Shown here: one piece after another, positions 36,772-46,728 of the stretch
Layout: each line of letters begins with the position of its first letter
Numbering within the stretch: the stretch's first letter is position 1
Assembly: GCA_965249055.1 (NCBI GenBank)
Contig: CBDFKX010000002.1
Coordinates: 1,936,830-2,000,829, forward strand
From: Candidatus Aldehydirespiratoraceae bacterium
GTDB taxonomy: Bacteria > Actinomycetota > Acidimicrobiia > Acidimicrobiales > Aldehydirespiratoraceae
DNA: 64,000 nt
Direction: 5' to 3'
Translations under genes and position numbers: made by a program
Notes under the pieces: generated by a model
The model's database searches: none
Seen by the model: the letters and a program-made list of their open reading frames with translations, nothing else
What the model was told of the DNA's origin: nothing

Positions 36772-37785
36772 ATGGCTACTGTCCGCACCGAAATCTCCGA
36801 AATAGTCACTGGGTTGGGTCTGTTCGGCTATCGAGATCTAGATCGAGCGCTTGCCGCTAGACCACGCTCGATCGGCAACGTCAATGACCGGGTGTTCGAC
36901 CGACTCGACACCGCCTACGCGGCTGACAAACATGCCGAGATATTCTCCACGGCGTACGCCAGCGGCGAGATATTTGCTCGGGCCAACGTTGGGCTGCGAG
37001 GTCGTGTGCCGTGGCTGGTCGAATGGAAAGGCCCTCATCGTCCGCCCGCGTACGAACAGATTCCTGCTGATTTGCGGGTCGATCACGTGTATTTGATCAG
37101 CTGCAAATACGGCTCGGACATTCTTCACAACGCATCTCCGTGGCATGTGTTCGACCGAGCTCTGGCGGAGCGTGCGAGACGTGGCGGTGATTGGTTTGCC
37201 GAAGTCGCCGCCGAGTCCTTTCAAGAGTTCTATTCCCAAGTGCGAAACCATGTGACCGACTTGTCGCTACCGACGCGGGTGACTGCGCTCAACGCAAACC
37301 ATCGAGCTGCGCTGCGCTCGGCGCTGAAGGGGCGGTGGCCGGCGTCGTTGCGTTATGACTGGGAACTCGTGGGGTTCGAGATTGCCCGTAACAGCGCTTC
37401 GCATCTCATGGAGCGCACCTCCAGCAGGAGAGATCGAGAGGAACTGCTGTGGAGGCTTCTGCGCCTCTCAGCCTCCCCATATTTCGTGCTTGGCACAGAC
37501 CGGAACGGGGAGCCGATCCGATACCGGGTGTTGACTCCGTGGGACTTCCAGAACCGCTTCCGTATGCGGCATTTCGACATGTGGGGAGACTATGCGGGTC
37601 AGCCGACCGTTCGGTGGCGCGCAGAGGTAGTCGATCGGGCAGACGCAACCCTCAGAACCGTGGAAGGCCATGTGGAGATTCGTTGGAGCCACGGCAAATT
37701 CGCCGGAGTTCCCGAAGCCAAAATCTATCTAGACACGCCCCACCACGATGTGGCTGGTTATGAGCCCATCGACAGTGGCAACTGA
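36772..37785 (+). CDS. Hypothetical protein; possible PD-(D/E)xK-like nuclease core (speculative)
   Basis: 337-aa ORF. The segment IPADLRVDHVYLISCKYGSD is loosely D...xK-like. Its stop codon lies inside the 7-bp target duplication of the downstream element. Confidence 0.5.
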   Translation: MATVRTEISEIVTGLGLFGYRDLDRALAARPRSIGNVNDRVFDRLDTAYAADKHAEIFSTAYASGEIFARANVGLRGRVPWLVEWKGPHRPPAYEQIPADLRVDHVYLISCKYGSDILHNASPWHVFDRALAERARRGGDWFAEVAAESFQEFYSQVRNHVTDLSLPTRVTALNANHRAALRSALKGRWPASLRYDWELVGFEIARNSASHLMERTSSRRDREELLWRLLRLSASPYFVLGTDRNGEPIRYRVLTPWDFQNRFRMRHFDMWGDYAGQPTVRWRAEVVDRADATLRTVEGHVEIRWSHGKFAGVPEAKIYLDTPHHDVAGYEPIDSGN

Positions 37786-37786
37786 T

Positions 37787-37808
37787 GGGGCTTATATACG
37801 TGAGTGAC
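37787..37808 (+). repeat. Left terminal inverted repeat of the 6.86-kb element
   Basis: Matches the right end over 22 nt, with a single 1-nt indel after the GGGG. Confidence 0.85.
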
Positions 37809-37858
37809 ATTTTCTGTCGGTTGTATCGACTGTTTTTGTGTGCTGAGCAGGGATTTAA

Positions 37859-39211
37859 AGCCTTCGCGGAAACGTGGGGTGGGGGGTGGTTGAGGGTCCC
37901 TGAGTAGGGGTCGAGGCCCTGCTGGAATCGGTGATTGAACGATCAACGATCTAGGAGGGCCCCGATGGCTAACGATGATATGCGTGTGCGGTTGCATTTG
38001 CGTGAGATACGTGTGGTTGAGGTGTTGGTGGACACGCCGAGCGTGTTGAGCGTGAGGGTCGAGTCGACGGTTAGGCATCCGCGGTGTGTGGTGTGCGGGT
38101 TCAAGTGTCACAGGGTGCATGACACCCGCGAGCGTGAGATACGCGACTTGGAAATATCGGGTCGTCGCACGGTGTTGGTGTGGTCTCGTCGCCGGTTGGC
38201 GTGCGATAACTGCGAGCATCGTTGGTTAGAGGAGCACAGCGAGTTCGACGGGCGCCTGACTCGCCGCCTGGCGCGGCGGCTGGTCGCGGACGCTGAGGTG
38301 ATGGCCATCTCAGCGGTAGCGCGCCGTCATGGTGTTGGCTGGCACACTGTGATGGCGTTGGTGAAAGCCTGGTCGGGACTGATTGCTGAGCATCGTCGTT
38401 CCCAGCGCTGTCGTGTGTTGCTGGTTGATGAGACCTCGATGCGCAAACGCCACCGTTACGTGACCGTCATCGTCAACGGCGACACCGGCAAGGTGTTGGC
38501 GATGGTCCCGCATCGCGACTGTGCTGCGTTGACAGGGTTTTTGATGTCGCAACCACATAGATGGCGCCGCGGGGTCAAAGTCGTCGTCACAGACGGATCA
38601 AAGGCCTACAAAGCCTCTGTGCAGACCTGTTTGCCCCACGCCCGTCATGTGCTTGACCGGTTCGGTGTGATCAGATGGTTCTGCACCGGGCTAACCGCGG
38701 TGCGCCGCGACATCCAACGCCGCGAACCACAAGGCGTCAAACCCGCATACGACCCAGAAGTGTTCCGATCCCGGTTCTTGCTGCTGCGCAGAGGCGACAA
38801 ACTCGAACCCGGCGACCAAGCCCGCCTCGATGAACTCTTCGAGGCTCACCCCCGTCTCAAAACCGGGTGGCAAGCTCTCCAGCAGCTCCACGGCCTTTAT
38901 CTTGCTGAGGACCACAACGGCACCCTGCAAGCCCTCAGCAGGTTCTGTGACCTCTACGAGACCGGCGAACTCCCCGAGTTCCATCACATCGTCGACACCA
39001 TCATCGCCTCATCAGACGAAATCTTGGCCTGGCACCACACCAACCGGGCCTCCAACGGCAGAATCGAGGGAACCAACAACCTGCTCCAAGTCCTACGAAG
39101 AACCGCCCACGGGTTCACCAACCCAACCAACTTCGCCGCCCGAGGACTCCTGATAACATGACCCACACACCGGCACCAGCAACCCCAAATCCCACGTTTC
39201 CGCGAAGGGCC
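37859..39211 (+). mobile_element. ISL3-family insertion sequence nested in the larger element
   Basis: The inverted ends are AGCCTTCGCGGAAACGTGGG (37859-) and CCCACGTTTCCGCGAAGGGCC (-39211). The 8-9-bp direct repeat (G)GGATTTAA lies at 37850-37858 and 39212-39220. Confidence 0.85.
37965..39161 (+). CDS. ISL3-family transposase
   Basis: AGGAGGG precedes the ATG at 37965. An N-terminal zinc-finger region is present (CVVCGFKCHRVHD...CDNCEH), followed by DETSMRKRHRYVTVIVNGDTGKVLAMVPHRD. Confidence 0.9.
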   Translation: MANDDMRVRLHLREIRVVEVLVDTPSVLSVRVESTVRHPRCVVCGFKCHRVHDTREREIRDLEISGRRTVLVWSRRRLACDNCEHRWLEEHSEFDGRLTRRLARRLVADAEVMAISAVARRHGVGWHTVMALVKAWSGLIAEHRRSQRCRVLLVDETSMRKRHRYVTVIVNGDTGKVLAMVPHRDCAALTGFLMSQPHRWRRGVKVVVTDGSKAYKASVQTCLPHARHVLDRFGVIRWFCTGLTAVRRDIQRREPQGVKPAYDPEVFRSRFLLLRRGDKLEPGDQARLDELFEAHPRLKTGWQALQQLHGLYLAEDHNGTLQALSRFCDLYETGELPEFHHIVDTIIASSDEILAWHHTNRASNGRIEGTNNLLQVLRRTAHGFTNPTNFAARGLLIT

Positions 39212-39236
39212 GGGATTTAAGCTATGTGCTAGAGGT

Positions 39237-39551
39237 ATGGTTTCCGAGCCTGATGAGGTTGCGTATTCGACTGCTGTGCGTGTGCAGTTGCCGAACCTCA
39301 ACAATGCCGCGAAGCATGATGTGTGGCGTGACCGTCAGATACAGGCACAGGGCTACAACTGGGGTGTCGAGCACGCGTTGGGGGTCTTCTTCGCAGATGA
39401 ACGTATCCAGTCGGCGCGGACGCATTCTCAACCGTTGACAAAGTACCGTCAGAAGGCTCCGTACACCACAGCATCCGCCACGACCGCAGCCCGCCTCGGC
39501 GCTCACTTGCTCACTTCGGCTCGGGCGCTGCTAGGTTCTTCGGTTCTATGA
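39237..39551 (+). pseudogene. Possible 5' fragment of a second tnpB-like gene
   Basis: AYSTAVRVQLPNLNNAAKHDVWRDRQIQAQGYNWGVEHAL resembles the TnpB N-terminal pattern (A-Y/F-x-x-R-L-x-P-N...Q...G..R..YN..L). The ORF stops after 104 aa, where the RCC1 gene starts. Confidence 0.35.
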
Positions 39552-42154
39552 CTGGAGCGACCATGACCTATGACGATGCTGCTGTTTCTGTGTGTGTGGG
39601 GGGCCGCGGTCGTGTCCGCCGGTCGTTGTCGATGTCGTTGTTGGTGGCGGCGTTGTTGGTGTGGGGGTTGTCTGCGGGGTCTACCGCTGGGGCGGTAGCA
39701 GGGTACGGCGACGTACCGGCGGGTGGGTACTTCGCTGAGCCCGTTCAATGGTCCGCCGACGAAGACATTACCGGGCTTTACGGTGCCTGTTTCGATCCCG
39801 ACGCCGAGGTGTCTCGCGGCGACTTCGCGGTGTACATCTGGAACATGGAAGGGTCGCCTACCGTCGGCGTGCCCGCCCACAAGTTCACCGATGTCGCCGC
39901 CGACGGCGAGGTGGCCACAGCCGTGTCGTGGATGGTTCACAAACAGATCACCACCGGCACCAGCGAGACGACGTTCTCGCCTGATGACACGTTGACACGG
40001 GCGCAAGCGGTGACGTTCCTGTGGCGTCTCGCCGACCGCCCCGCGGATGCTCCGGAGCATCCGTTCAGCGACGTGACCGCTCCGTGGCAGCAAGGGCCGG
40101 TCTCCTGGGCGGCGCACAACAAGATCACCACCGGCACCAGCGCGACGACGTTCACGCCTGACCGGGCGTTGACACGCGCGGAGGTAGTGACGTTCCTATG
40201 GCGCTACAACAACACACCAGCAGTAACCGTCGATCCAGCGTCGCCAGTATGCGCGCCGACGTTCCAGTCGGTCTCCGCCGGTAGTTGGCATTCGTGCGGG
40301 TTGCAGACCGACGGCACAGTCACCTGCTGGGGCAGAAACGACCACGGGCAGTCTGATGCGCCTGAGGGGACGTTCCAGTCGGTCTCCGCCGGTAGTTGGC
40401 ATTCGTGGGTCACGGGCGGTGGTTGGCATTCGTGCGGGTTGCGTACCGACAACACGGTCACCTGCTGGGGCCGGAACAGATACGGGGAGTCTGATGCGCC
40501 TGAGGGGTCGTTCCAGTCGGTCTCCGCCGGCGGTTTGCATTCGTGCGGGTTGCGTACCGACAACACGGTCACCTGCTGGGGCAGCAACGGCTACGGGCAG
40601 TTAGACGGGCTTGGGGCGATAATCCGGCCTGATCTGCTTGAAGCGCTTAGGGGATCGTTCCAGTCGGTCTCCGCCGGTGGTTGGCATTCGTGCGGGTTGC
40701 GTACCGACAACACCGTCGTCTGCTGGGGTGGCAACGACGTCGGGCAGTCTGATGCGCCTGAGGGGACGTTCCAGTCGGTCTCCTTCGGTAATTCGCATTC
40801 GTGCGGGTTGCGTACCGACGGCACCGTCGTCTGCTGGGGCGACAACGGCTCCGGGCAGTCTGATGCGCCTGAGGGGTCGTTCCAGTCGGTCTCCTTCGGT
40901 AGTTGGCATTCGTGCGGGTTGCGTACCGACGGCACCGTCGTCTGCTGGGGCGACAACGGCTCCGGGCAGTCTGATGCGCCTGAGGGGTCGTTCCAGTCGG
41001 TCTCGGTCGGCTATGGGTATTCGTGCGGTGTGCCTACCGACGGCACAGTCGTCTGCTGGGGCTACAACGACGACGGGCGGGCTGATGGGACGTTCCAGTC
41101 GGTCTCGGTCGGCCGTGGGCATTCGTGCGGTGTGCGTACCGACGGCACAGTCGTCTGCTGGGGCGACAACCGCTACGAGCAGAGGGTCACGCCTGGTCAC
41201 TCGTTCCAGTCGGTCTCCGCCGGTAATTTGCATTCGTGCGTGTTGCAGACCGACGGCACAGTCACCTGCTGGGGCAGAAACTTCGACGGGGAGTCCGTTG
41301 CGCCTGGGGGATCGTTCCAGTCGGTCTACGCCGGTGATGACTATTCGTGCGGTGTGCGGACCGACAACACGGTCACCTGCTGGGGCGTCTGGGCCGGTGC
41401 GCCTGAGGGGACGTTCCAGTCGGTCTCCTTCGGTTGGGGGCATTCGTGCGGTGTGCGTACCGACGGCACGGTCACCTGCTGGGGTTTGCTGTCTTATGCG
41501 CCTGAGGGATCGTTCCAGTCGGTCTCCGCCGGTAGGACGTTCCGGTTGGTCTCCTTCGGTAGTTGGTATTGGCATTCGTGCGGTGTGCGTACCGACAACA
41601 CCGTCACCTGCTGGGGCAGCAACAACTTCGGGCAGTCTGATGCGCCTAAGGGGACGTTCCAGTCGGTCTCCGCCGGCAGTTCGCATTCGTGCGGGTTGCG
41701 TACCGACAACACGGTCACCTGCTGGGGCAGAAACGACCACGGGCAGTCTATTGCGCCTGGGGGATCGTTCCAGTCGGTCTCGGTCGGTTGGGGGTATTCG
41801 TGCGGTGTGCGGACCGACAACACCGTCACCTGCTGGGGCAGAAACGACCACGGGCAGTCTGATGCGCCTGAGGGGACGTTCCAGTCGGTCTCCTTCGGTA
41901 ATTCGCATTCGTGCGGGTTGCGTACCGACAACACGGTCACCTGCTGGGGCAGCAGGGGCCGGCCTAGCCGCTCCAACAACGAGTACCCCAACCCCTGGCA
42001 GACTGATGCGCCTGAGGGGACGTTCCAGTCGGTCTCGGTCGGTAGTTGGCATTCGTGCGGTGTGCGTACCGACGGCACGGTCACCTGCTGGGGCAGCAAC
42101 CGCGACGGTTTTCGATACGTCGGGCAGTCTGATGCGCCTGGGGTGCTCGGTTAG
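39548..42154 (+). CDS. Secreted SLH-domain protein with 16 RCC1-like (beta-propeller blade) repeats
   Basis: Signal peptide (RRSLSMSLLVAALLVWGLSAGSTAGA) followed by three SLH-like segments (FTDV...TTGTSETTFSPDDTLTRAQAVTFLWR). Then 16 copies of FQSVSAGxxHSCG(L/V)RTD(G/N)TVTCWGxNxxGQSDAPEG. Confidence 0.85.
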   Translation: MTGATMTYDDAAVSVCVGGRGRVRRSLSMSLLVAALLVWGLSAGSTAGAVAGYGDVPAGGYFAEPVQWSADEDITGLYGACFDPDAEVSRGDFAVYIWNMEGSPTVGVPAHKFTDVAADGEVATAVSWMVHKQITTGTSETTFSPDDTLTRAQAVTFLWRLADRPADAPEHPFSDVTAPWQQGPVSWAAHNKITTGTSATTFTPDRALTRAEVVTFLWRYNNTPAVTVDPASPVCAPTFQSVSAGSWHSCGLQTDGTVTCWGRNDHGQSDAPEGTFQSVSAGSWHSWVTGGGWHSCGLRTDNTVTCWGRNRYGESDAPEGSFQSVSAGGLHSCGLRTDNTVTCWGSNGYGQLDGLGAIIRPDLLEALRGSFQSVSAGGWHSCGLRTDNTVVCWGGNDVGQSDAPEGTFQSVSFGNSHSCGLRTDGTVVCWGDNGSGQSDAPEGSFQSVSFGSWHSCGLRTDGTVVCWGDNGSGQSDAPEGSFQSVSVGYGYSCGVPTDGTVVCWGYNDDGRADGTFQSVSVGRGHSCGVRTDGTVVCWGDNRYEQRVTPGHSFQSVSAGNLHSCVLQTDGTVTCWGRNFDGESVAPGGSFQSVYAGDDYSCGVRTDNTVTCWGVWAGAPEGTFQSVSFGWGHSCGVRTDGTVTCWGLLSYAPEGSFQSVSAGRTFRLVSFGSWYWHSCGVRTDNTVTCWGSNNFGQSDAPKGTFQSVSAGSSHSCGLRTDNTVTCWGRNDHGQSIAPGGSFQSVSVGWGYSCGVRTDNTVTCWGRNDHGQSDAPEGTFQSVSFGNSHSCGLRTDNTVTCWGSRGRPSRSNNEYPNPWQTDAPEGTFQSVSVGSWHSCGVRTDGTVTCWGSNRDGFRYVGQSDAPGVLG

Positions 42155-42281
42155 GGCCGGTGGGGGTCGCCGGCTTAGGTTATTCGTGCGGTGTACGCAC
42201 CGACAACACGATCACCTGCTTCCACAACACGATCACCTGCTTCCACGAAAACGAGCACGGGCAGACTGATGCTCCGTAGAT
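40258..42281 (+). repeat. Tandem coding repeats of about 111 bp (RCC1-like blades), plus a decayed out-of-frame 17th unit after the stop
   Basis: Repeat units are near-identical at the DNA level. The remnant at 42155-42281 still reads YSCGVRTDNTITC..., contains an internal 18-bp duplication and ends HGQTDAP-stop. Confidence 0.85.
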
Positions 42282-42372
42282 CGTCGCCGTGAGCAGGGAT
42301 TACCCACCTCGATAGACGGTCGAGGTGCGCCGGTCGCCGTGAGTGGCCACAACCTCGCCGTGTAGTCGAGGG

Positions 42373-43092
42373 TTATACCTCGATGATGTCACCGCGGGCT
42401 GCTGCTGCCTCGGCGTCGAGGCGGGCTGTGGCGACCGCGCGGCGTGCCTGCGTGATCGACCAGACGCCGCGCCCTGTGGCTGTCGGCTGACCGTCGGCGG
42501 TAAGCCGGTCAGCGATCTGCTGCCAGGTCAGACCGGCTGCGCGGTGTCGCTCGATGATCGGAGCGGCTTGCCGTGTTGCCGGCGAGACGGGACCGCCGAG
42601 GCGCTGCCCGCGGCGTTTCGCCGCCGCGAGCGCGTCGATGGTGCGCTCGCGGGCTATGTCGCGCTCCCAGCGGGCGAGCCCGGCGAGCACGGTCAGCATG
42701 AGCCGACCGTTGATCGTCGCGGTGTCGAAGCCGAGATCGAGCACAGCCAGCGACCAGCCGCGGCGCTCGGCGCGCTCGGCGAGGACCAGCACGTCGGCGG
42801 CGCTGCGCCCGAGGCGTGAGATGGCCGACACGACCAGCACCGAGGCGTCGCCTGCGTCGAGCGCTGCCAACGCTCCGGAGAGGCCGGGCCGGTCGTCGGG
42901 CGCTACCGATCCGGACACGCCGTCGTCGACGACGACCGAGTGCGGCTGGTAGCCCTGGGCGACCGCGTAGGCGGTGGTGCGGTCGGTCTGTGCTTCGATG
43001 CCGAGCCCCGACGCTGCCTGATCGGCGGTGGATACGCGGATGTAGCAGATCGACGGGCGGGCGCTGGTTGTGTCTGTGGTGGTGGTGGTCAC
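42373..43092 (-). CDS. Small serine recombinase (resolvase/invertase type: N-terminal catalytic domain, C-terminal HTH)
   Basis: Motifs found: ICYIRVSTADQ (catalytic Ser), VVSAISRLGRS and GLARWERDIARERT, with a C-terminal HTH (LTWQQIADRL). The start is uncertain (GTG 43092 or ATG 43134). Confidence 0.85.
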   Translation of the reverse strand: MTTTTTDTTSARPSICYIRVSTADQAASGLGIEAQTDRTTAYAVAQGYQPHSVVVDDGVSGSVAPDDRPGLSGALAALDAGDASVLVVSAISRLGRSAADVLVLAERAERRGWSLAVLDLGFDTATINGRLMLTVLAGLARWERDIARERTIDALAAAKRRGQRLGGPVSPATRQAAPIIERHRAAGLTWQQIADRLTADGQPTATGRGVWSITQARRAVATARLDAEAAAARGDIIEV

Positions 43093-43122
43093 ACTCTGTA
43101 GTATACGTGTACGGACAAACGC

Positions 43123-44640
43123 GTGTACGCGCATCGCAAGGCAACCGAACGGACCGACGAACGTGTCGAACAGTTGACCGCCGCGACTGCCGGAACCACC
43201 CATGAAGGAGCCGTAGCAGCGGCGCTAGCAGCGCTTGTTTCGTGTCGTGCAGCACAGCAGCGTCGGCTGGCGTTAGCTGACACCAACGAAGGCGCGCTGT
43301 GGGGGCTGCGACCAACCCTGCCCGACCCGGCTCTGACCGGTTTGAGCGTCGATGAACGCTCTACCGCTATCTCTACCGCAGCGGACGCCGAAGTAACCGC
43401 AGCCGAGGAGTTGAAGACTACGCTGGGCATGATCCGTCCCGGCAAAGACAAGAAATTGAAAACAGCGGTGAACAAAACCGTCTCGGCGGTCGCCGCGGAG
43501 GCCAAAGCCGTCAAACGTCTCTGCGGCCACGTCGCCAAAGGCGAGAAACGGCTGTTTCGTTCTCGCAAAGAGACCGAACGCTGCTCCGGTCCGGCGTTGG
43601 TCTTGTTCGAGGGCTGTCGTGTCCGCGATGCTGTGTTGCGGCTCCCCGGCGGTACAGAAATCCCGTTGCCGACCGGGATCGAAACAGCCGACGACATCCT
43701 CGCCCAACATGACACACCTTTGGAGTGGAAAGGCGCAGCCCACGTCGTCGACGTGACAGACCTCGCAGGCAAAGTCACACGCCGGACCGAACCTGAGCAT
43801 CGCAAATACCATGTGCATTTTCTGTGCCGCGCCACCGCACCCGCACCGAAGCCGCCACGGACCGCGGATGAGTCGTTGGGCACCGACTGGGGTGTGACAA
43901 CCGCCCTCGTATGCAGCGACGGCTCCGCGTACGGTCTTTATCCCAACGAGAAGCAGCAACGCGCGAACCAGCAACGAGGCGACCAAGCAAAACAGCTACA
44001 GAAGTCGATGTCGAACAAGACGGCTGGTAGCCGCAGACACAACCAGCAGCGCCGTCGCCGTGCCCGGTTGATCGCCAAGAACACGAACGTGCGTGTCAAC
44101 CATCAACTCCACATCGCCAAAGATGTCGTCACCAAACCAGATCTCCGCAAGGTCGTCACCGAGGACACCAAAGCCGCGAACATGACCGCATCCGCGGTCG
44201 GAACCCGAGCGTTCCCGACACGAGGTTCCGCCGCGAAGACCGGACTGAACCGCAGCATCTTAGAGACTGCGCCGGCACGACAAACCGAGTTCATCGAACG
44301 CGCCGCTGTCCGGTACAGCGTCGCTACACAGCGGGAACATCCCGCTTACACATCGTTGACCTGTTTCGTTTGTGGAACGCTTGGAGATCGCGAGATTCAA
44401 GCGAAATTCAAATGTTCAGAGTGTTGTTCGTACACCCACGCGGATGTACAAGCATCGCTCAACACCAACGAAAAAGGCAACCCGAACCTGTATCCGGCAG
44501 GATCGGATATCGGCGGCAGGGACAGCCGTCGTAAGACGTTAGAACACGCCCTCGGGGTTTTCTTAGACTCCCAAGGTGTGGACGGAGGCGTCACAAACCA
44601 ATATGCGTCAGCAGCGACCGTCGGTCACTCACGTATATAA
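43123..44640 (+). CDS. tnpB: TnpB-like RuvC nuclease (IS605/IS607 OrfB family); appears to lack the canonical first 45 aa or so
   Basis: Motifs found: SLGTDWGV (RuvC-I Asp), KVVTEDTKAANM (RuvC-II Glu), the zinc finger CFVCG...CSECC and THADVQASLN (RuvC-III Asp). The motif KRLFRSRKE matches the conserved P-x-F-K-S-K-K region. The frame opens only 8 codons upstream of the GTG at 43123. Confidence 0.8.
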   Translation: MYAHRKATERTDERVEQLTAATAGTTHEGAVAAALAALVSCRAAQQRRLALADTNEGALWGLRPTLPDPALTGLSVDERSTAISTAADAEVTAAEELKTTLGMIRPGKDKKLKTAVNKTVSAVAAEAKAVKRLCGHVAKGEKRLFRSRKETERCSGPALVLFEGCRVRDAVLRLPGGTEIPLPTGIETADDILAQHDTPLEWKGAAHVVDVTDLAGKVTRRTEPEHRKYHVHFLCRATAPAPKPPRTADESLGTDWGVTTALVCSDGSAYGLYPNEKQQRANQQRGDQAKQLQKSMSNKTAGSRRHNQQRRRRARLIAKNTNVRVNHQLHIAKDVVTKPDLRKVVTEDTKAANMTASAVGTRAFPTRGSAAKTGLNRSILETAPARQTEFIERAAVRYSVATQREHPAYTSLTCFVCGTLGDREIQAKFKCSECCSYTHADVQASLNTNEKGNPNLYPAGSDIGGRDSRRKTLEHALGVFLDSQGVDGGVTNQYASAATVGHSRI

Positions 44641-44646
44641 GTCCCC
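44624..44646 (-). repeat. Right terminal inverted repeat of the 6.86-kb element
   Basis: See the left TIR. This repeat contains the tnpB-like stop codon (44638-44640) and the exonuclease stop codon (44625-44627). Confidence 0.85.
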
Positions 44647-45350
44647 AACTGATCAACCCCAGCCCGTGGTTGAGCGCGCCTTTGGATCAGGGCGCGAGCA
44701 AGGTGGGCATCGCTCACGACGTAGGTCCGGCGCTCGTCGTCGGACAGTTGATGGATGCGTTGTCGGTCGACCTCGACAACCTCCAGACCGACCAGACGAG
44801 CGAGGGGTTTGAGAGCACAGGAGATACCCAAGCTCGCACCGACGTCGGCTCTGAACACCTGGTAGGCATCGAGATGGCCGTGGCAGTGCCAGCGAGCCCG
44901 ATACCCGCCGACCAGGTGCTGCGGAGACTGGTGACCGCCTGGAATCAAAGGGTCGTGAACCAGACACAGCCCCAGAGGCACTCCGCAGACCGCCGCGCGT
45001 TCGCTGAGGAAGGGAAGGTCGAAACACCCCCCGTTCCAGGTCACCAGGATTCCAGGTTCCAGATCGGCCAGATGTTGGTCGAGTTCTACCAGCAAGTCCG
45101 ATTCTGCGCCGTCGAACACTGCGGAGAAGTCCTCGCCGACCAGCGCCGCAGCCAGCACCGGCGCGACCTGCGGATCGAGACCGTCGGTAGTGGTGTCGGT
45201 CTCGATGTCGAGGCCGTAGAGCGGTAGTCGTCGGTGCGCCGAAAGGAATTGAGCCGTAGGGGACCGGGCCGGAAGAGACTGACTGGACACGATGGTGGTG
45301 ATAGTAGGCGCACCCTGTGACGCGCGGCCCGTAGGTCGAGCCGTCTGCAC
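44625..45350 (-). CDS. DEDDy-type 3'-5' exonuclease (RNase H-like/PolB-exo-like fold)
   Basis: Motifs found: LYGLDIETD (ExoI), LVTWNGGCFDLPFL (ExoII) and YVVSDAHLARAL (ExoIII, YxxxD). The last six codons (GTYIRE-stop) are supplied by the TIR of the inserted element. Confidence 0.7.
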   Translation of the reverse strand: MQTARPTGRASQGAPTITTIVSSQSLPARSPTAQFLSAHRRLPLYGLDIETDTTTDGLDPQVAPVLAAALVGEDFSAVFDGAESDLLVELDQHLADLEPGILVTWNGGCFDLPFLSERAAVCGVPLGLCLVHDPLIPGGHQSPQHLVGGYRARWHCHGHLDAYQVFRADVGASLGISCALKPLARLVGLEVVEVDRQRIHQLSDDERRTYVVSDAHLARALIQRRAQPRAGVDQLGTYIRE

Positions 45351-45371
45351 CGGCGGATCTGAGCCGCCTGA

Positions 45372-45480
45372 GTCAGCTGAGAGTCAGCGTCACCAGGAAC
45401 TGCAGGACCTACACGTTCTCCGCGAGTCTGGACGAGCACGGCTGGGGTCAGTTGAGAGTCAGCGTCACCAGGAACTGCAG
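45372..45480. repeat. 34-bp direct repeat (one mismatch) duplicating the 3' end of the glutaminyl cyclase gene
   Basis: TCAGCTGAGAGTCAGCGTCACCAGGAACTGCAGG lies at 45372-45405 and TCAGTTGAGAGTCAGCGTCACCAGGAACTGCAGG at 45447-45480. The flanks are unrelated. Confidence 0.85.
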
Positions 45481-46728
45481 GGGCCAGTTCTTCCCGCCGA
45501 GGATCCACTCGCCGTCTCCGTTGTAGGCAATGCCGTTGAGCACCGTATGGCGTTCATCGGTCGAGACGCCGACTTCAGCGGCGAGCGATGCGGCGTCGAT
45601 TGACACCAGCACCTCTCCAGAATCGGGGTCGATGACGATGATCTCATTGGTCAGCCAGATGTTGGCGACAACCAGCCCCTCGACACATTCGAGTTCGTTG
45701 ATCCTTGTTACGGGCTCGTTGTTGCGTCGAATGGTCGTAGTCGCCACGACCGCGAAGTCCCTGCTGCGGTGGGTGAGTGTAGAGGTGCCGTCGCTCATCA
45801 ATAGACGCGAACTGCCGTCGTCCCAACAGATCCCCCAACCCTCGCCGTCGTAACGGTACTCTCCGAGCGGCTCGAAGGTGTCGCGGTCCCAGCGCAACGC
45901 CCGACCCTCGCGCCAACTGAGTTGAATAATCTCGTCACCGACCAGAGTCAGGCCCTCGCCGAACACCTCGGAGTCGAGCGCAACCGAGCGCAGTTCATCG
46001 GGGCCGTTGAGGGCACGCAGACGGGATTCTCCGTAGAGCCCGGTGCTCTCATAGATGATCCCGCCGTCAGTCTCAAGTCCTTGAGTGAAGGCTTCGGTGT
46101 TGTGACTCCATGAAGCTTCGATCTTCACCCGCCATTCTCGATCCTCAGCAGTGCGGGGATCTGCGGGCCACGGCGACACAGCGACCTCGCCCGGCAAAGT
46201 CGTACTGGTGGTCGAGCTCGTGCCGGTCGGAGTCGTGGTCGTCGCAGAGGTTGAGCCGGTGGACGGTGCCACGCCGGTGGTTGGCCTGGTGCCGGTGTCG
46301 ATGGACGGAGCCGCGCCGGTTGTCGGCGTCGTGCTGTCGTCGGAGGCCGTGTCGGTGGATGAGTTCGTGTCGGTGGATGAGTTCGTGTCGGTGGATGGGC
46401 TCGTGTCGGTGGATGAGTTCGTGTCGGTGGATGGGCTCGTGTCGGTGGATGGGTTCGTGTCGGTGGATGAACCCGTGTCGGTGTTTGACGTTGTGCTGTT
46501 GTCGGTGACCGTGTCGGTGGATGAACCCGCACCGGAGGTTGGCGTGGTGCTTCTGTCGGTAGCGAGGCTGGAGACCTCGGCGCTGTCGCTCGGGGTCGCC
46601 GTGGTTGAAGGGCTGACAACAGGCTCACCGACAGGCCGGTCACCGTCTGATCCAGCGCACGCCGAGGCAACGAGGCAACAGAGGCACACAACCGCACCGA
46701 GCGGGCCCCGGACGAGCCGGCGGATCAT
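45448..46728 (-). CDS. Lipoprotein: glutamine cyclotransferase (beta-propeller type) with a Ser/Thr/Asp-rich repeat linker
   Basis: Lipobox-like LVASAC and an (STDTN/STDTS)n linker. The C-terminal domain reads HNTEAFTQGLE...YESTGLYGESRLR...FGEGLTL...LSWREG...GWGI...LNGIAY. Confidence 0.75.
   Translation of the reverse strand: MIRRLVRGPLGAVVCLCCLVASACAGSDGDRPVGEPVVSPSTTATPSDSAEVSSLATDRSTTPTSGAGSSTDTVTDNSTTSNTDTGSSTDTNPSTDTSPSTDTNSSTDTSPSTDTNSSTDTNSSTDTASDDSTTPTTGAAPSIDTGTRPTTGVAPSTGSTSATTTTPTGTSSTTSTTLPGEVAVSPWPADPRTAEDREWRVKIEASWSHNTEAFTQGLETDGGIIYESTGLYGESRLRALNGPDELRSVALDSEVFGEGLTLVGDEIIQLSWREGRALRWDRDTFEPLGEYRYDGEGWGICWDDGSSRLLMSDGTSTLTHRSRDFAVVATTTIRRNNEPVTRINELECVEGLVVANIWLTNEIIVIDPDSGEVLVSIDAASLAAEVGVSTDERHTVLNGIAYNGDGEWILGGKNWPLQFLVTLTLN
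46349..46474 (-). repeat. 18-bp tandem repeat (about 7 units) encoding the STDTN/STDTS linker
   Basis: GTGTCGGTGGATGAGTTC and GTGTCGGTGGATGGGCTC units alternate. Confidence 0.8.

What the first reader, a model, noticed from the sequence alone, without database searches (positions are those of the whole stretch)
43123..44653. TnpB-like RuvC nuclease with an intact catalytic triad, whose 3' end coincides with the element terminus
The D (GTDWGV), E (VTEDTK) and D (HADVQAS) residues and the CxxC...CxxC zinc finger are all present, so the nuclease core looks functional. In characterised TnpB systems, the omega/reRNA scaffold overlaps the 3' end of tnpB and the guide starts just past the transposon end. 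Here the stop codon lies inside the right TIR, so an omega-RNA would read out into AACTGATCAACCCC.... Two features are atypical. The gene sits in a TIR/TSD element, and it lacks the canonical N-terminal beta-strand/YN motif. The frame opens only 8 codons upstream, just 30 bp from a divergent recombinase gene.
Basis: partly seen in the sequence, partly recalled or inferred. Interest (0 to 1): 0.7.

Follow-up and report, generated by a model that had tools for sequence, protein, structure and literature searches.

The report
Broken TnpB gene in IS1595-type element
The ORF is the rear four-fifths of a TnpB RNA-guided nuclease gene split by a 3.7-kb insertion, so this copy is dead, but it belongs to a little-known family of TnpB-only mobile elements that use the ends of an ordinary IS1595 cut-and-paste transposon.

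Summary
ORF 43123-44640 (+) encodes a TnpB-type RuvC nuclease with D/E/D, a CxxC..CxxC zinc finger and a stop codon inside a 22-bp terminal inverted repeat. The copy is not functional. Intact relatives (55-60% identical, Acidimicrobiales) are 620-640 aa. The missing N-terminus, including the YN motif, lies 3.7 kb upstream at 39237-39455, and about 31 conserved codons are lost. The intervening 3.66 kb carries an RCC1/SLH surface-protein gene and a resolvase-type serine recombinase. That recombinase is not an IS607 TnpA, and no relative has one. An ISL3 also sits in the element's leader.

The TIR/TSD architecture is real and conserved: roughly 1.9-2.0 kb single-ORF elements, with perfect 8-bp TSDs in 10 of 13 loci listed. 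The same TIR bounds many IS1595-family transposase elements and MITEs, so these are non-autonomous IS1595-type elements, presumably mobilised in trans. The last ~260 nt show covariation-supported RNA structure, consistent with an omega-RNA ending at the terminus.

TnpB carriers alone show an oriented target signature (G|MAAV..), which may be a TAM. The closest solved relative by sequence is Cas12n, which uses an AAN PAM.

The parts
37779..37786 (.). Left copy of the 8-bp target-site duplication CAACTGAT. It is preceded by G at 37778, and it contains the TGA stop of the flanking gene 36772-37785.
37787..37808 (+). Left terminal inverted repeat GGGGCTTATATACGTGAGTGAC (IS1595-subgroup type).
   Evidence: The same TIR bounds IS1595-transposase elements.
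37859..39211 (+). Secondary insertion of an ISL3-family IS (transposase 37935-39161) in the element's leader, just upstream of the conserved GCTAT..T -10-like box. It is flanked by the direct repeat GGGATTTAA (37850-58 and 39212-20) and has IRs of the form GCC(C)TTCGCGGAAACGTGGG.
   Evidence: Very high depth in the sample, so it is multi-copy.
39237..39455 (+). 5' fragment of tnpB: first WED beta-strand and the YN motif (VAYSTAVRVQL...QAQGYNWGVE...PLTKYRQ). The ORF then runs on into unrelated sequence to a stop at 39551.
   Evidence: tblastn E=1e-22 with homolog N-termini; alignment.
39456..43113 (.). 3.66-kb insertion that splits tnpB. It is bounded by a 9-bp inverted repeat: TCCGTACAC at 39458-39466 and GTGTACGGA at 43107-43115. 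About 31 tnpB codons are missing at the junction.
   Evidence: Junctions are covered by independent contigs.
39548..42154 (+). Cargo gene inside the insertion: 868-aa secreted SLH + 16x RCC1-repeat protein. A degenerate repeat remnant follows at about 42180-42280.
42373..43092 (-). Small serine recombinase of resolvase/invertase type (catalytic domain N-terminal, about 75 aa C-terminal tail). It lies inside the insertion and is not an IS607 TnpA.
   Evidence: Pfam Resolvase E=1e-35; IS607 model 31 bits vs 110 cut-off; relatives sit in plasmid/phage-like contigs.
43123..44640 (+). 3' fragment of tnpB, the ORF of the finding: part of REC, WED strands, RuvC-I/II/III (D255, E347, D441) and the zinc-finger TNB domain. 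Homology starts at about 43114.
44387..44645 (+). Omega-RNA-like structured region overlapping the last ~85 codons. Helices include 44387-44405, 44421-44458, 44482-44506, 44512-44530 and 44535-44592. The loop AGGGACA (44518-24) is complementary to the terminal GUCCC (44641-45).
   Evidence: control region
44624..44645 (-). Right terminal inverted repeat (reverse complement GGGACTTATATACGTGAGTGAC). It encodes the C-terminal GHSRI* of TnpB.
44646..44653 (.). Right copy of the TSD CAACTGAT. It marks the start of the flank that an omega-RNA guide would copy (about 44646-44670).
   Evidence: The guide role is inferred.

Best explanation
The finding is the 3' four-fifths of a tnpB gene belonging to a 6.86-kb, twice-invaded copy (37787-44645) of what is normally a roughly 1.9-2.0 kb single-gene mobile element. 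Intact family members occur in Acidimicrobiales. They consist of ~22-bp TIRs (GGGACTTATATACCTGAGTGAC), an 8-bp TSD, a ~75-bp leader with a promoter-like box, and one 620-640-aa TnpB-like ORF whose stop codon lies 5 bp from the right end. The TIRs and TSD length are those of an IS1595-family subgroup. The elements are therefore non-autonomous IS1595-type transposons in which tnpB occupies the place of the DDE transposase, and they are presumably moved in trans by an IS1595 transposase (inferred). The last ~260 nt, inside the CDS, fold into a conserved RNA that ends at the terminus. By analogy with TnpB, Fanzor and Cas12n, this is the omega-RNA scaffold and the adjacent flank (TSD onward) supplies the guide (inferred). 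In this window the system is dead. An ISL3 sits between the left TIR and the tnpB start. A 3.66-kb segment carrying an RCC1/SLH gene and a resolvase-type recombinase has replaced ~31 conserved codons in the WED/REC region. The 505-aa ORF therefore lacks its first ~105 residues. The RNA module and the right end are still intact.
For: Homologs are 620-640 aa, and the window ORF aligns only from their residue ~108. The missing N-terminus was found at 39237-39455 (E=1e-22). No remnant of the LQRGG..KKWSKRR segment occurs in any frame at the junctions. TIR pairs with perfect 8-bp TSDs occur in 10 of 13 loci listed, 8 of 11 independent insertion sites, each a solo tnpB in a different gene context. 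The same TIR bounds at least 18 elements encoding DDE_Tnp_IS1595 + Zn_ribbon_IS1595 transposases and at least 20 MITE-like derivatives, nearly all with 8-bp TSDs. RNA evidence: 7 helices, 92.7% of cells paired, 16 pairs with compensatory change against 8.8+-1.6 in shuffles (0/500) and 3-6 in slid controls. An internal control region of the same genes gives only 5 such pairs and -21 kcal/mol against 21 pairs and -51.5 kcal/mol. The window copy folds the same way, z=-2.9. Invariant G-U pairs indicate the sense strand. TnpB membership: NF040570 above cut-off; Foldseek top hits are TnpB 8h1j, Cas12m2 and Cas12f; the best PDB sequence match is RdCas12n 9J09, E=1e-18. Family dN/dS is 0.17-0.45. Both junctions are confirmed by independent contigs.
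Against: No IS1595 transposase with these TIRs was found in the window or within 3-8 kb of any tnpB copy. The IS1595 relatives come from lower-GC viral or metagenomic contigs, so the trans-mobiliser in Acidimicrobiales is unidentified. No RNA data exist for this organism, so omega-RNA expression and guide boundaries are untested. The 505-codon fragment has no internal stop and keeps 94 of 99 family-invariant residues, so disruption is recent or the fragment retains some use. The AF2 model is poor over RuvC (pLDDT <50) and TM-scores to TnpB are low. The origin of the 3.66-kb insert is unresolved.
Confidence: 0.8

Rival explanations
1. IS607-like unit: the adjacent serine recombinase is the TnpA transposase of the element and works with TnpB.
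For: A serine recombinase gene lies 30 bp from the ORF. A weak hit to the IS607 transposase model exists (31 bits).
Against: The score is far below the 110-bit cut-off. The catalytic domain is N-terminal with a C-terminal tail, whereas IS607 TnpA has its DNA-binding domain N-terminal (PMC6188088). The gene is divergent and sits inside the insertion that breaks tnpB. None of the 20 loci fetched for the tnpB relatives (about 11 independent insertions) has a recombinase. The element has TIRs and TSDs, which IS607 lacks (PMC13565253). The recombinase's relatives lie among ParA and terminase genes.
Confidence: 0.02
2. The 505-aa ORF is a functional N-terminally shortened nuclease, or it reassembles with the 104-aa upstream fragment as a split TnpB.
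For: There are no internal stops over 505 codons. The triad and zinc finger are intact, and 94 of 99 invariant residues are kept.
Against: It lacks the first WED strand, the YN helix and the near-invariant LQRGG..KKWSKRR segment, which no frame encodes. All 25 full-length relatives retain these. The fragment has no obvious promoter of its own, and three family-invariant and 12 near-invariant residues have already changed.
Confidence: 0.05
3. The 3.66-kb insert is a recombinase-controlled switch. The resolvase-type enzyme inverts or excises the segment between the 9-bp inverted repeats, for example as phase variation of the RCC1/SLH surface protein driven from the tnpB or ISL3 promoter side.
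For: The 9-bp inverted repeat lies exactly at both insert boundaries (chance about 0.01 by my estimate). The recombinase gene abuts one boundary inside the segment, as in Hin/Gin-type systems.
Against: Nine bp is short for a serine-recombinase site. No strand-switch or deletion joints appear in the contigs of three runs, although depth is only ~3-7x. Excision could not restore tnpB because ~93 bp are missing.
Confidence: 0.08
4. The whole 6.86-kb structure transposed as a unit: IS1595-type ends carrying RCC1/recombinase/ISL3 cargo. The insertions would then predate the arrival at this site rather than being in-situ decay.
For: The TSD is perfect at the outer ends. IS1595-type elements with these TIRs do carry cargo, such as the R-M system in L023.
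Against: No second copy of the composite is known. The left TIR shows one mismatch. The order of events cannot be read from one copy.
Confidence: 0.12

Closest known systems
TnpB/omega-RNA of IS200/IS605 (ISDra2 TnpB, and solo-tnpB IS1341-type elements)
   Same: RuvC D-E-D plus a C4 zinc-finger TNB domain and a WED/REC N-terminus in intact relatives. A structured RNA overlaps the 3' end of the ORF and ends at the element's right boundary. Solo copies lack a transposase.
   Different: This family has 22-bp TIRs and an 8-bp TSD instead of subterminal hairpins with no TSD. No Y1 TnpA is present. The protein is 620-640 aa with a greatly enlarged helical REC (residues ~86-267 of P0004). The target signature is A-rich rather than TTGAT/TTAC-type.
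DDE-transposon-associated TnpB branches (DDE-1 to DDE-6 of Altae-Tran et al. 2023, PMC10691335) and Fanzor in eukaryotic TIR/TSD transposons (PMC10711439, PMC3627910)
   Same: TnpB lies inside a symmetric inverted-repeat, TSD-generating transposon with the TnpB 3' end at the transposon end. Solo copies with transposon-type ends imply trans mobilisation. The TIR, and probably the TSD, form part of the RNA scaffold.
   Different: The partner family here is IS1595 (8-bp TSD). The families named in the 2026 review (PMC13565253) are ISL2, IS630 and IS1031. No copy with transposase and tnpB together was seen. I could not check the supplementary lists of PMC10691335, so overlap with one of its DDE branches is not excluded.
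IS1595 family insertion sequences (ISXO2-like DDE transposase)
   Same: TIR sequence GGGAMTTATATACNTGAGT..., an 8-bp AT-rich TSD, and the existence of cargo-carrying and MITE derivatives.
   Different: There is no IS1595 transposase. The single ORF is TnpB. Insertions are oriented relative to an asymmetric target (G at -1, A-rich TSD), which the transposase-encoding and MITE relatives do not show.
Cas12n (type V-N/V-U4), e.g. Rothia dentocariosa RdCas12n, PDB 9J09
   Same: It is the best sequence match among solved structures (E=1e-18 over RuvC+TNB). It comes from an actinobacterial host, has an expanded REC and a disordered C-terminal tail whose coding DNA overlaps the scaffold RNA, and uses an A-rich 5'-AAN PAM (PMC12216341). 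That PAM resembles the MAAV start of the TSDs.
   Different: No CRISPR array or cas genes are nearby. This family is transposon-borne with TIR/TSD. The N-terminal ~245 residues match nothing outside the narrow family.
IS607 (serine-recombinase TnpA + TnpB)
   Same: A serine recombinase gene lies next to a tnpB ORF.
   Different: The recombinase has resolvase domain order, is divergent, lies inside the disrupting insertion and is absent from all relatives. The element has TIR/TSD.

Membership tests
TnpB (RNA-guided endonuclease, NCBIfam NF040570 / Pfam PF07282+PF01385) | RuvC-I/II/III catalytic D, E, D | tested here: met
   D255, E347 and D441 of the ORF lie in invariant columns.
TnpB (RNA-guided endonuclease, NCBIfam NF040570 / Pfam PF07282+PF01385) | C4 zinc-finger TNB domain between RuvC-II and RuvC-III | tested here: met
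   CFVC...CSEC is present; PF07282 E=2e-9, 37.8 bits against a 26.3-bit cut-off.
TnpB (RNA-guided endonuclease, NCBIfam NF040570 / Pfam PF07282+PF01385) | Whole-protein profile score above the curated cut-off | tested here: met
   NF040570 scores 115.4 bits against a 100-bit cut-off, but it matches only ORF residues 216-448.
TnpB (RNA-guided endonuclease, NCBIfam NF040570 / Pfam PF07282+PF01385) | Complete N-terminal WED/REC (first beta-strand, YN helix) contiguous with RuvC | tested here: not met
   In the window copy the first ~72 codons lie 3.7 kb upstream and ~31 codons are deleted. The feature is met in intact relatives; the P0004 model has E13-24 and H29-58.
TnpB (RNA-guided endonuclease, NCBIfam NF040570 / Pfam PF07282+PF01385) | Structured omega/reRNA overlapping the 3' end of the ORF and ending at the element boundary | tested here: met
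   A covariation-supported structure occupies the last ~260 nt and is retained in the window copy. No Rfam family matches. Expression was not tested.
TnpB (RNA-guided endonuclease, NCBIfam NF040570 / Pfam PF07282+PF01385) | RNA-guided, TAM-dependent DNA cleavage | not testable with these tools
   Only an indirect hint exists: the oriented G|MAAV target signature.
IS200/IS605 (including IS1341 solo-tnpB) | No TIR, no TSD, subterminal hairpins, Y1 (HUH) TnpA in cis or trans | tested here: not met
   The elements have 22-bp TIRs and 8-bp TSDs. No Y1 gene is seen in any locus.
IS607 | Serine-recombinase TnpA with N-terminal HTH, co-oriented upstream of tnpB; no TIR/TSD | tested here: not met
   The IS607 TnpA model scores 31 bits against 110. 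The Resolvase domain is N-terminal. The gene is divergent and inside the insert, and it is absent from relatives.
IS1595 family (as a non-autonomous derivative) | Terminal inverted repeats shared with elements that encode a DDE_Tnp_IS1595 transposase | tested here: met
   The left TIR matches the L025 right-end TIR at 20/22, and at least 18 transposase-encoding elements carry the same TIR signature.
IS1595 family (as a non-autonomous derivative) | 8-bp target-site duplication | tested here: met
   Perfect in 10 of 13 tnpB elements, including the window, and in most IS1595/MITE relatives. That 8 bp is typical of IS1595 is from my own knowledge of ISfinder and Siguier et al. 2009.
IS1595 family (as a non-autonomous derivative) | IS1595 DDE transposase encoded in the element | tested here: not met
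   tblastn finds none in the window or in any tnpB locus. The elements are therefore non-autonomous.
Cas12n (type V-N CRISPR effector) | Adjacent CRISPR array / tracrRNA-crRNA system | tested here: not met
   No array lies near the element; only coding repeats were found. All neighbours are ordinary genes.

The most novel reading that the evidence does not exclude
An RNA-guided TnpB/omega-RNA module has replaced the transposase in an IS1595-type cut-and-paste element. Its TAM is read partly from outside the TSD: 5'-G-M-A-A, with the G contributed only by the empty site or left flank, while the right TSD copy is preceded by the C of the TIR. This would give built-in discrimination between occupied and empty sites. 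It would also explain why TnpB carriers, unlike their IS1595 and MITE relatives, sit in one orientation at G|AAA-rich targets. The lineage could be a transposon-borne sister of the AAN-PAM Cas12n effectors.
Probability: 0.3. Interest if true: 0.7.

Novelty: new variant of a known kind. Interest (0 to 1): 0.45.

Why it matters
For this genome the answer is mundane. The ORF should be annotated as a tnpB pseudogene fragment inside a decayed IS, and the neighbouring recombinase should not be called TnpA.

The family behind it is more useful. It links TnpB to a DDE family (IS1595) that is not among those named in the literature I could read. It offers a natural comparison between TnpB-carrying and TnpB-free elements with the same ends, and only the TnpB carriers show an oriented target signature. 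That makes the question 'what does an RNA-guided nuclease do for a cut-and-paste transposon?' directly testable. The family also points to large, monomer-like TnpBs with possible A-rich TAMs related to Cas12n, which may interest genome-editing work.

Tried and rejected
- Rfam 15 at permissive E-values over 37000-45500 gave no match.
- A metagenome-contig scan gave only one extra locus, a duplicate of L004. The genome-contig scan gave 5 loci.
- A viral-contig scan for the protein family found none.
- Public runs holding the locus are three low-depth runs of one metagenome sample with no RNA data. They confirmed the junctions but cannot show expression or rare rearrangements.
- The AF2 model of an intact homolog was confident only for the N-terminal half. 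Foldseek still ranked TnpB and Cas12 first, but with low TM-scores.
- ISL3 was considered as the trans-mobiliser because it also makes an 8-bp TSD. I dropped it once the IS1595 TIR match was found, since the ISL3 IR (GGCCCTTCGCGG...) is different.
- I considered that TnpB itself is the transposase of a one-ORF IS. I rejected this as unnecessary, because the ends belong to a transposase family that is well represented elsewhere.
- I considered a two-element origin of the split gene. I rejected it because the outer TSDs match perfectly.
- The supplementary files of PMC10691335 were not available, so overlap with its DDE-1 to DDE-6 branches is unchecked.
Full report
**Observation.** ORF 43123-44640 (+) encodes 505 aa. 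It contains LGTDWGV, VVTEDTK, CFVCG...CSECCSYTHADVQAS. It scores above the curated cut-off of NCBIfam 'RNA-guided endonuclease TnpB family' (115.4 vs 100 bits, but only residues 216-448 match). It also hits Pfam Cas12f1-like_TNB (E=2e-9) and OrfB_IS605, the latter just below cut-off. The stop codon (44638-44640) lies inside a 22-nt sequence, 44624-44645. The reverse complement of that sequence occurs at 37787-37808 with 21/22 identity, where 0.01 matches are expected by chance. Both copies are flanked by CAACTGAT.

**The ORF is a fragment.** The closest proteins in 5.8 billion sequences are only 55-60% identical, are 620-640 aa long, and extend about 125 residues further at the N-terminus. That N-terminus carries the canonical first beta-strand and the 'QAQAYNWGVE' helix.
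- tblastn of these N-termini against the window finds them at 39237-39455 on the same strand, E=1e-22. This is 3.66 kb upstream of the point (43114-43123) where homology resumes.
- About 31 codons are absent in every frame at both junctions. They correspond to TGS.HSLLLQRGGFW..AVKKWSKRR.Q and include nine near-invariant and two invariant residues.
- The fragment still keeps 94 of 99 family-invariant residues and has no internal stop, so the disruption is probably recent.
- Independent short-read contigs from the same sample run across both junctions, so this is not a mis-assembly.

**What lies between and around.** The intervening 39456-43113 carries two genes.
- One is an 868-aa SLH + 16x RCC1-repeat protein gene (39548-42154, +).
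- The other is a convergent 239-aa serine recombinase gene (42373-43092, -).
- The recombinase has its catalytic domain at the N-terminus. It scores 31 bits against the IS607 transposase model (cut-off 110). Its nearest relatives (55-60% identity) sit among ParA, terminase and small phage/plasmid genes. It is a resolvase/invertase-type enzyme, not an IS607 TnpA. IS607 TnpA has an N-terminal DNA-binding domain, and IS607 lacks TIRs and TSDs (PMC6188088, PMC13565253).
- The insert is bounded by a 9-bp inverted repeat, TCCGTACAC at 39458-66 and GTGTACGGA at 43107-15. How it arrived is unresolved.
- A complete ISL3 element (transposase 37935-39161, flanked by the direct repeat GGGATTTAA) sits between the left TIR and the tnpB start, just upstream of a -10-like box conserved in relatives.

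**The element family.** I fetched 20 loci encoding relatives. They represent about 11 independent insertions in Acidimicrobiales MAGs, including Ca. Aldehydirespiratoraceae.
- Each is a roughly 1.9-2.0 kb unit: a TIR, a ~75-bp leader, one 608-642-aa ORF ending 5 bp from the right end, and the other TIR. Each sits between unrelated housekeeping genes.
- The TSD is a perfect 8 bp in 10 of the 13 loci listed (8 of 11 independent insertion sites) and near-perfect in the rest.
- None contains or adjoins a transposase or recombinase that travels with it.
- Pairwise dN/dS is 0.17-0.45, so the protein is under purifying selection.
- Another copy (L005) is also broken by an insertion in its 5' part plus a frameshift.

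**Whose ends are these?** I scanned IMG/VR for the TIR signature.
- It returned at least 120 loci.
- Pairing inverted copies gave at least 18 elements of 1.2-2.6 kb. By tblastn these encode proteins similar to two transposases that Pfam assigns to DDE_Tnp_IS1595 + Zn_ribbon_IS1595 (E=1e-42 to 1e-45).
- It also gave at least 20 MITE-like derivatives of 275-870 bp, nearly all with perfect 8-bp TSDs. One element carries an MvaI/BcnI-type restriction-modification pair as cargo.
- The two IS1595 transposases are only 47% identical yet share the TIR, so the TIR marks a broad IS1595 subgroup.
- The tnpB elements are therefore IS1595-type elements in which tnpB stands where the transposase normally is. 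Mobilisation by an IS1595 transposase in trans is the obvious inference, but no such gene was seen near any copy.
- Prokaryotic TnpBs inside DDE transposons with inverted ends, and solo copies moved in trans, are already described (PMC10691335). The families named in a 2026 review are ISL2, IS630 and IS1031 (PMC13565253). IS1595 plus TnpB returned nothing relevant.

**The RNA.** I aligned the last 280 nt plus flank of 12 elements.
- Several blocks are invariant even at synonymous sites, for example GGCGGCAGGGACAGCCGTCG.
- RNAalifold predicts 58 pairs at -51.5 kcal/mol, 21 of them with compensatory changes.
- For seven helices, 92.7% of cells pair. Sixteen pairs show double changes, against 8.8+-1.6 in column shuffles (0/500) and 3-6 when partners are slid by 1-3 columns.
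- An internal 300-nt control from the same genes gives -21 kcal/mol and 5 such pairs.
- Invariant G-U pairs place the structure on the sense strand.
- The window copy folds into the same helices, z=-2.9.
- The loop of the invariant hairpin (AGGGACA, 44518-24) is complementary to the non-coding terminal GUCCC. That terminal sequence is invariant at the right end of all 13 loci, while the left-end equivalent varies. The geometry, roughly -125 pairing with -1 to -5, resembles the pseudoknot shown for IS607 TnpB reRNA (PMC10711439). This pairing never varies, so it is only a suggestion.
Expression is untested.

**Protein relatives.**
- A profile of 25 intact members finds RdCas12n (9J09) as the best solved relative, E=1e-18 over RuvC+TNB. 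Cas12f and TnpB structures follow at 1e-9 to 1e-6.
- The AF2 model (pLDDT 69, poor over RuvC) retrieves ISDra2 TnpB, Cas12m2 and Cas12f first.
- It shows an N-terminal strand, a helix, and a long helical REC expansion.
- In a 1.84-billion-protein library, only 67 representatives reach 1e-30 and only two are full length. The first ~245 residues match nothing outside this narrow family.

**An oriented target signature.**
- In the 11 independent tnpB insertions, the base before the left TSD is G in 11 of 11. The TSD is A-rich on the tnpB sense strand (45 A vs 14 T; 10 of 10 untied sites), with consensus G|MAAVNNAN|S.
- In 28 IS1595/MITE relatives with the same ends, G at -1 occurs in 7 of 28 (Fisher p=2e-5) and there is no consistent orientation.
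- A symmetric transposase should not produce an orientation bias, but a TAM requirement could.
- Cas12n uses 5'-AAN PAMs (PMC12216341).
- The right TSD copy is preceded by the C of the TIR rather than G, which would protect the occupied site.
- This reading is an inference from 11 sites. It is offered as the most novel reading, not as a finding.

**Verdict.** The finding is a real TnpB-family gene fragment with an intact catalytic core and an intact omega-RNA-like 3' module. It sits in a genuine TIR/TSD element, but the copy is a pseudogene in a doubly invaded element, and the recombinase next to it is a passenger of the insertion. The 'atypical' TIR/TSD is explained by IS1595-type ends. The locus itself is ordinary decay. 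The family is a modestly novel variant of DDE-transposon-borne TnpB and worth a targeted experiment.

Noticed in passing
window 37859-39211: A complete ISL3-family IS (408-aa transposase; IRs ~GGCCCTTCGCGGAAACGTGGG; flanked by the direct repeat GGGATTTAA) is inserted in the leader of the tnpB element. Its k-mer depth in the source sample is 100-800x against ~4-7x for the surrounding genome, so it is highly multi-copy in that community.
   Followed up: partly
window 39458-39466 and 43107-43115: A 9-bp inverted repeat (TCCGTACAC / GTGTACGGA) lies exactly at the two boundaries of the 3.66-kb RCC1 + recombinase insert. Next to the right copy is a near-palindrome GTATACGTGTAC. These may be recombinase sites or microhomology; the matter is unresolved.
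   Followed up: partly
window 39548-42280: An 868-aa SLH + 16x RCC1-repeat protein gene has highly repetitive DNA (111/138/324-bp periods). A degenerate, out-of-frame repeat remnant lies downstream of its stop (42180-42280). Contigs from the sample show many repeat-skipping joints here.
   Followed up: no
window 37758-37786 and 44625-44660: The element inserted in the overlap of two convergent genes. The TSD contains the TGA stop of ORF 36772-37785. The last six residues of the 3'-5' exonuclease-like ORF (44625-45350, -) are now encoded by the TIR (GTYIRE* instead of PLSMGS*).
   Followed up: partly
L023 11188-13766 (also L024): An IS1595-type element with the same TIRs carries a complete MvaI/BcnI-type restriction endonuclease plus an N6/N4 methyltransferase as cargo behind its transposase.
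   Followed up: partly
L029, L033, L040, L068, L088 and others (IMG/VR loci): There are many 275-870-bp MITE-like derivatives of the same IS1595 subgroup with perfect 8-bp AT-rich TSDs in viral contigs, sometimes nested (L062).
   Followed up: partly
L005 3964-7551: A second family member is also a pseudogene. A ~1.6-kb segment with a 367-aa gene on the opposite strand is inserted in the 5' part of tnpB, at a different position from the window's insert, and there is a frameshift near the RuvC-II region.
   Followed up: partly
L002/L003/L010 and L004/L007/L016-L020: The same tnpB insertion (identical TSD and flanks) is shared by different MAGs and samples. L002 and L010 are 98% identical at the protein level with dN/dS 0.45, so some copies are old, vertically inherited and still intact. 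Left TIRs are more degenerate than right TIRs.
   Followed up: partly
window 46150-46560 (within ORF 45448-46728, -): A glutamine-cyclotransferase-domain protein has a long Ser/Thr/Asp/Pro-rich low-complexity N-terminal region encoded by 18/54-bp tandem repeats.
   Followed up: no
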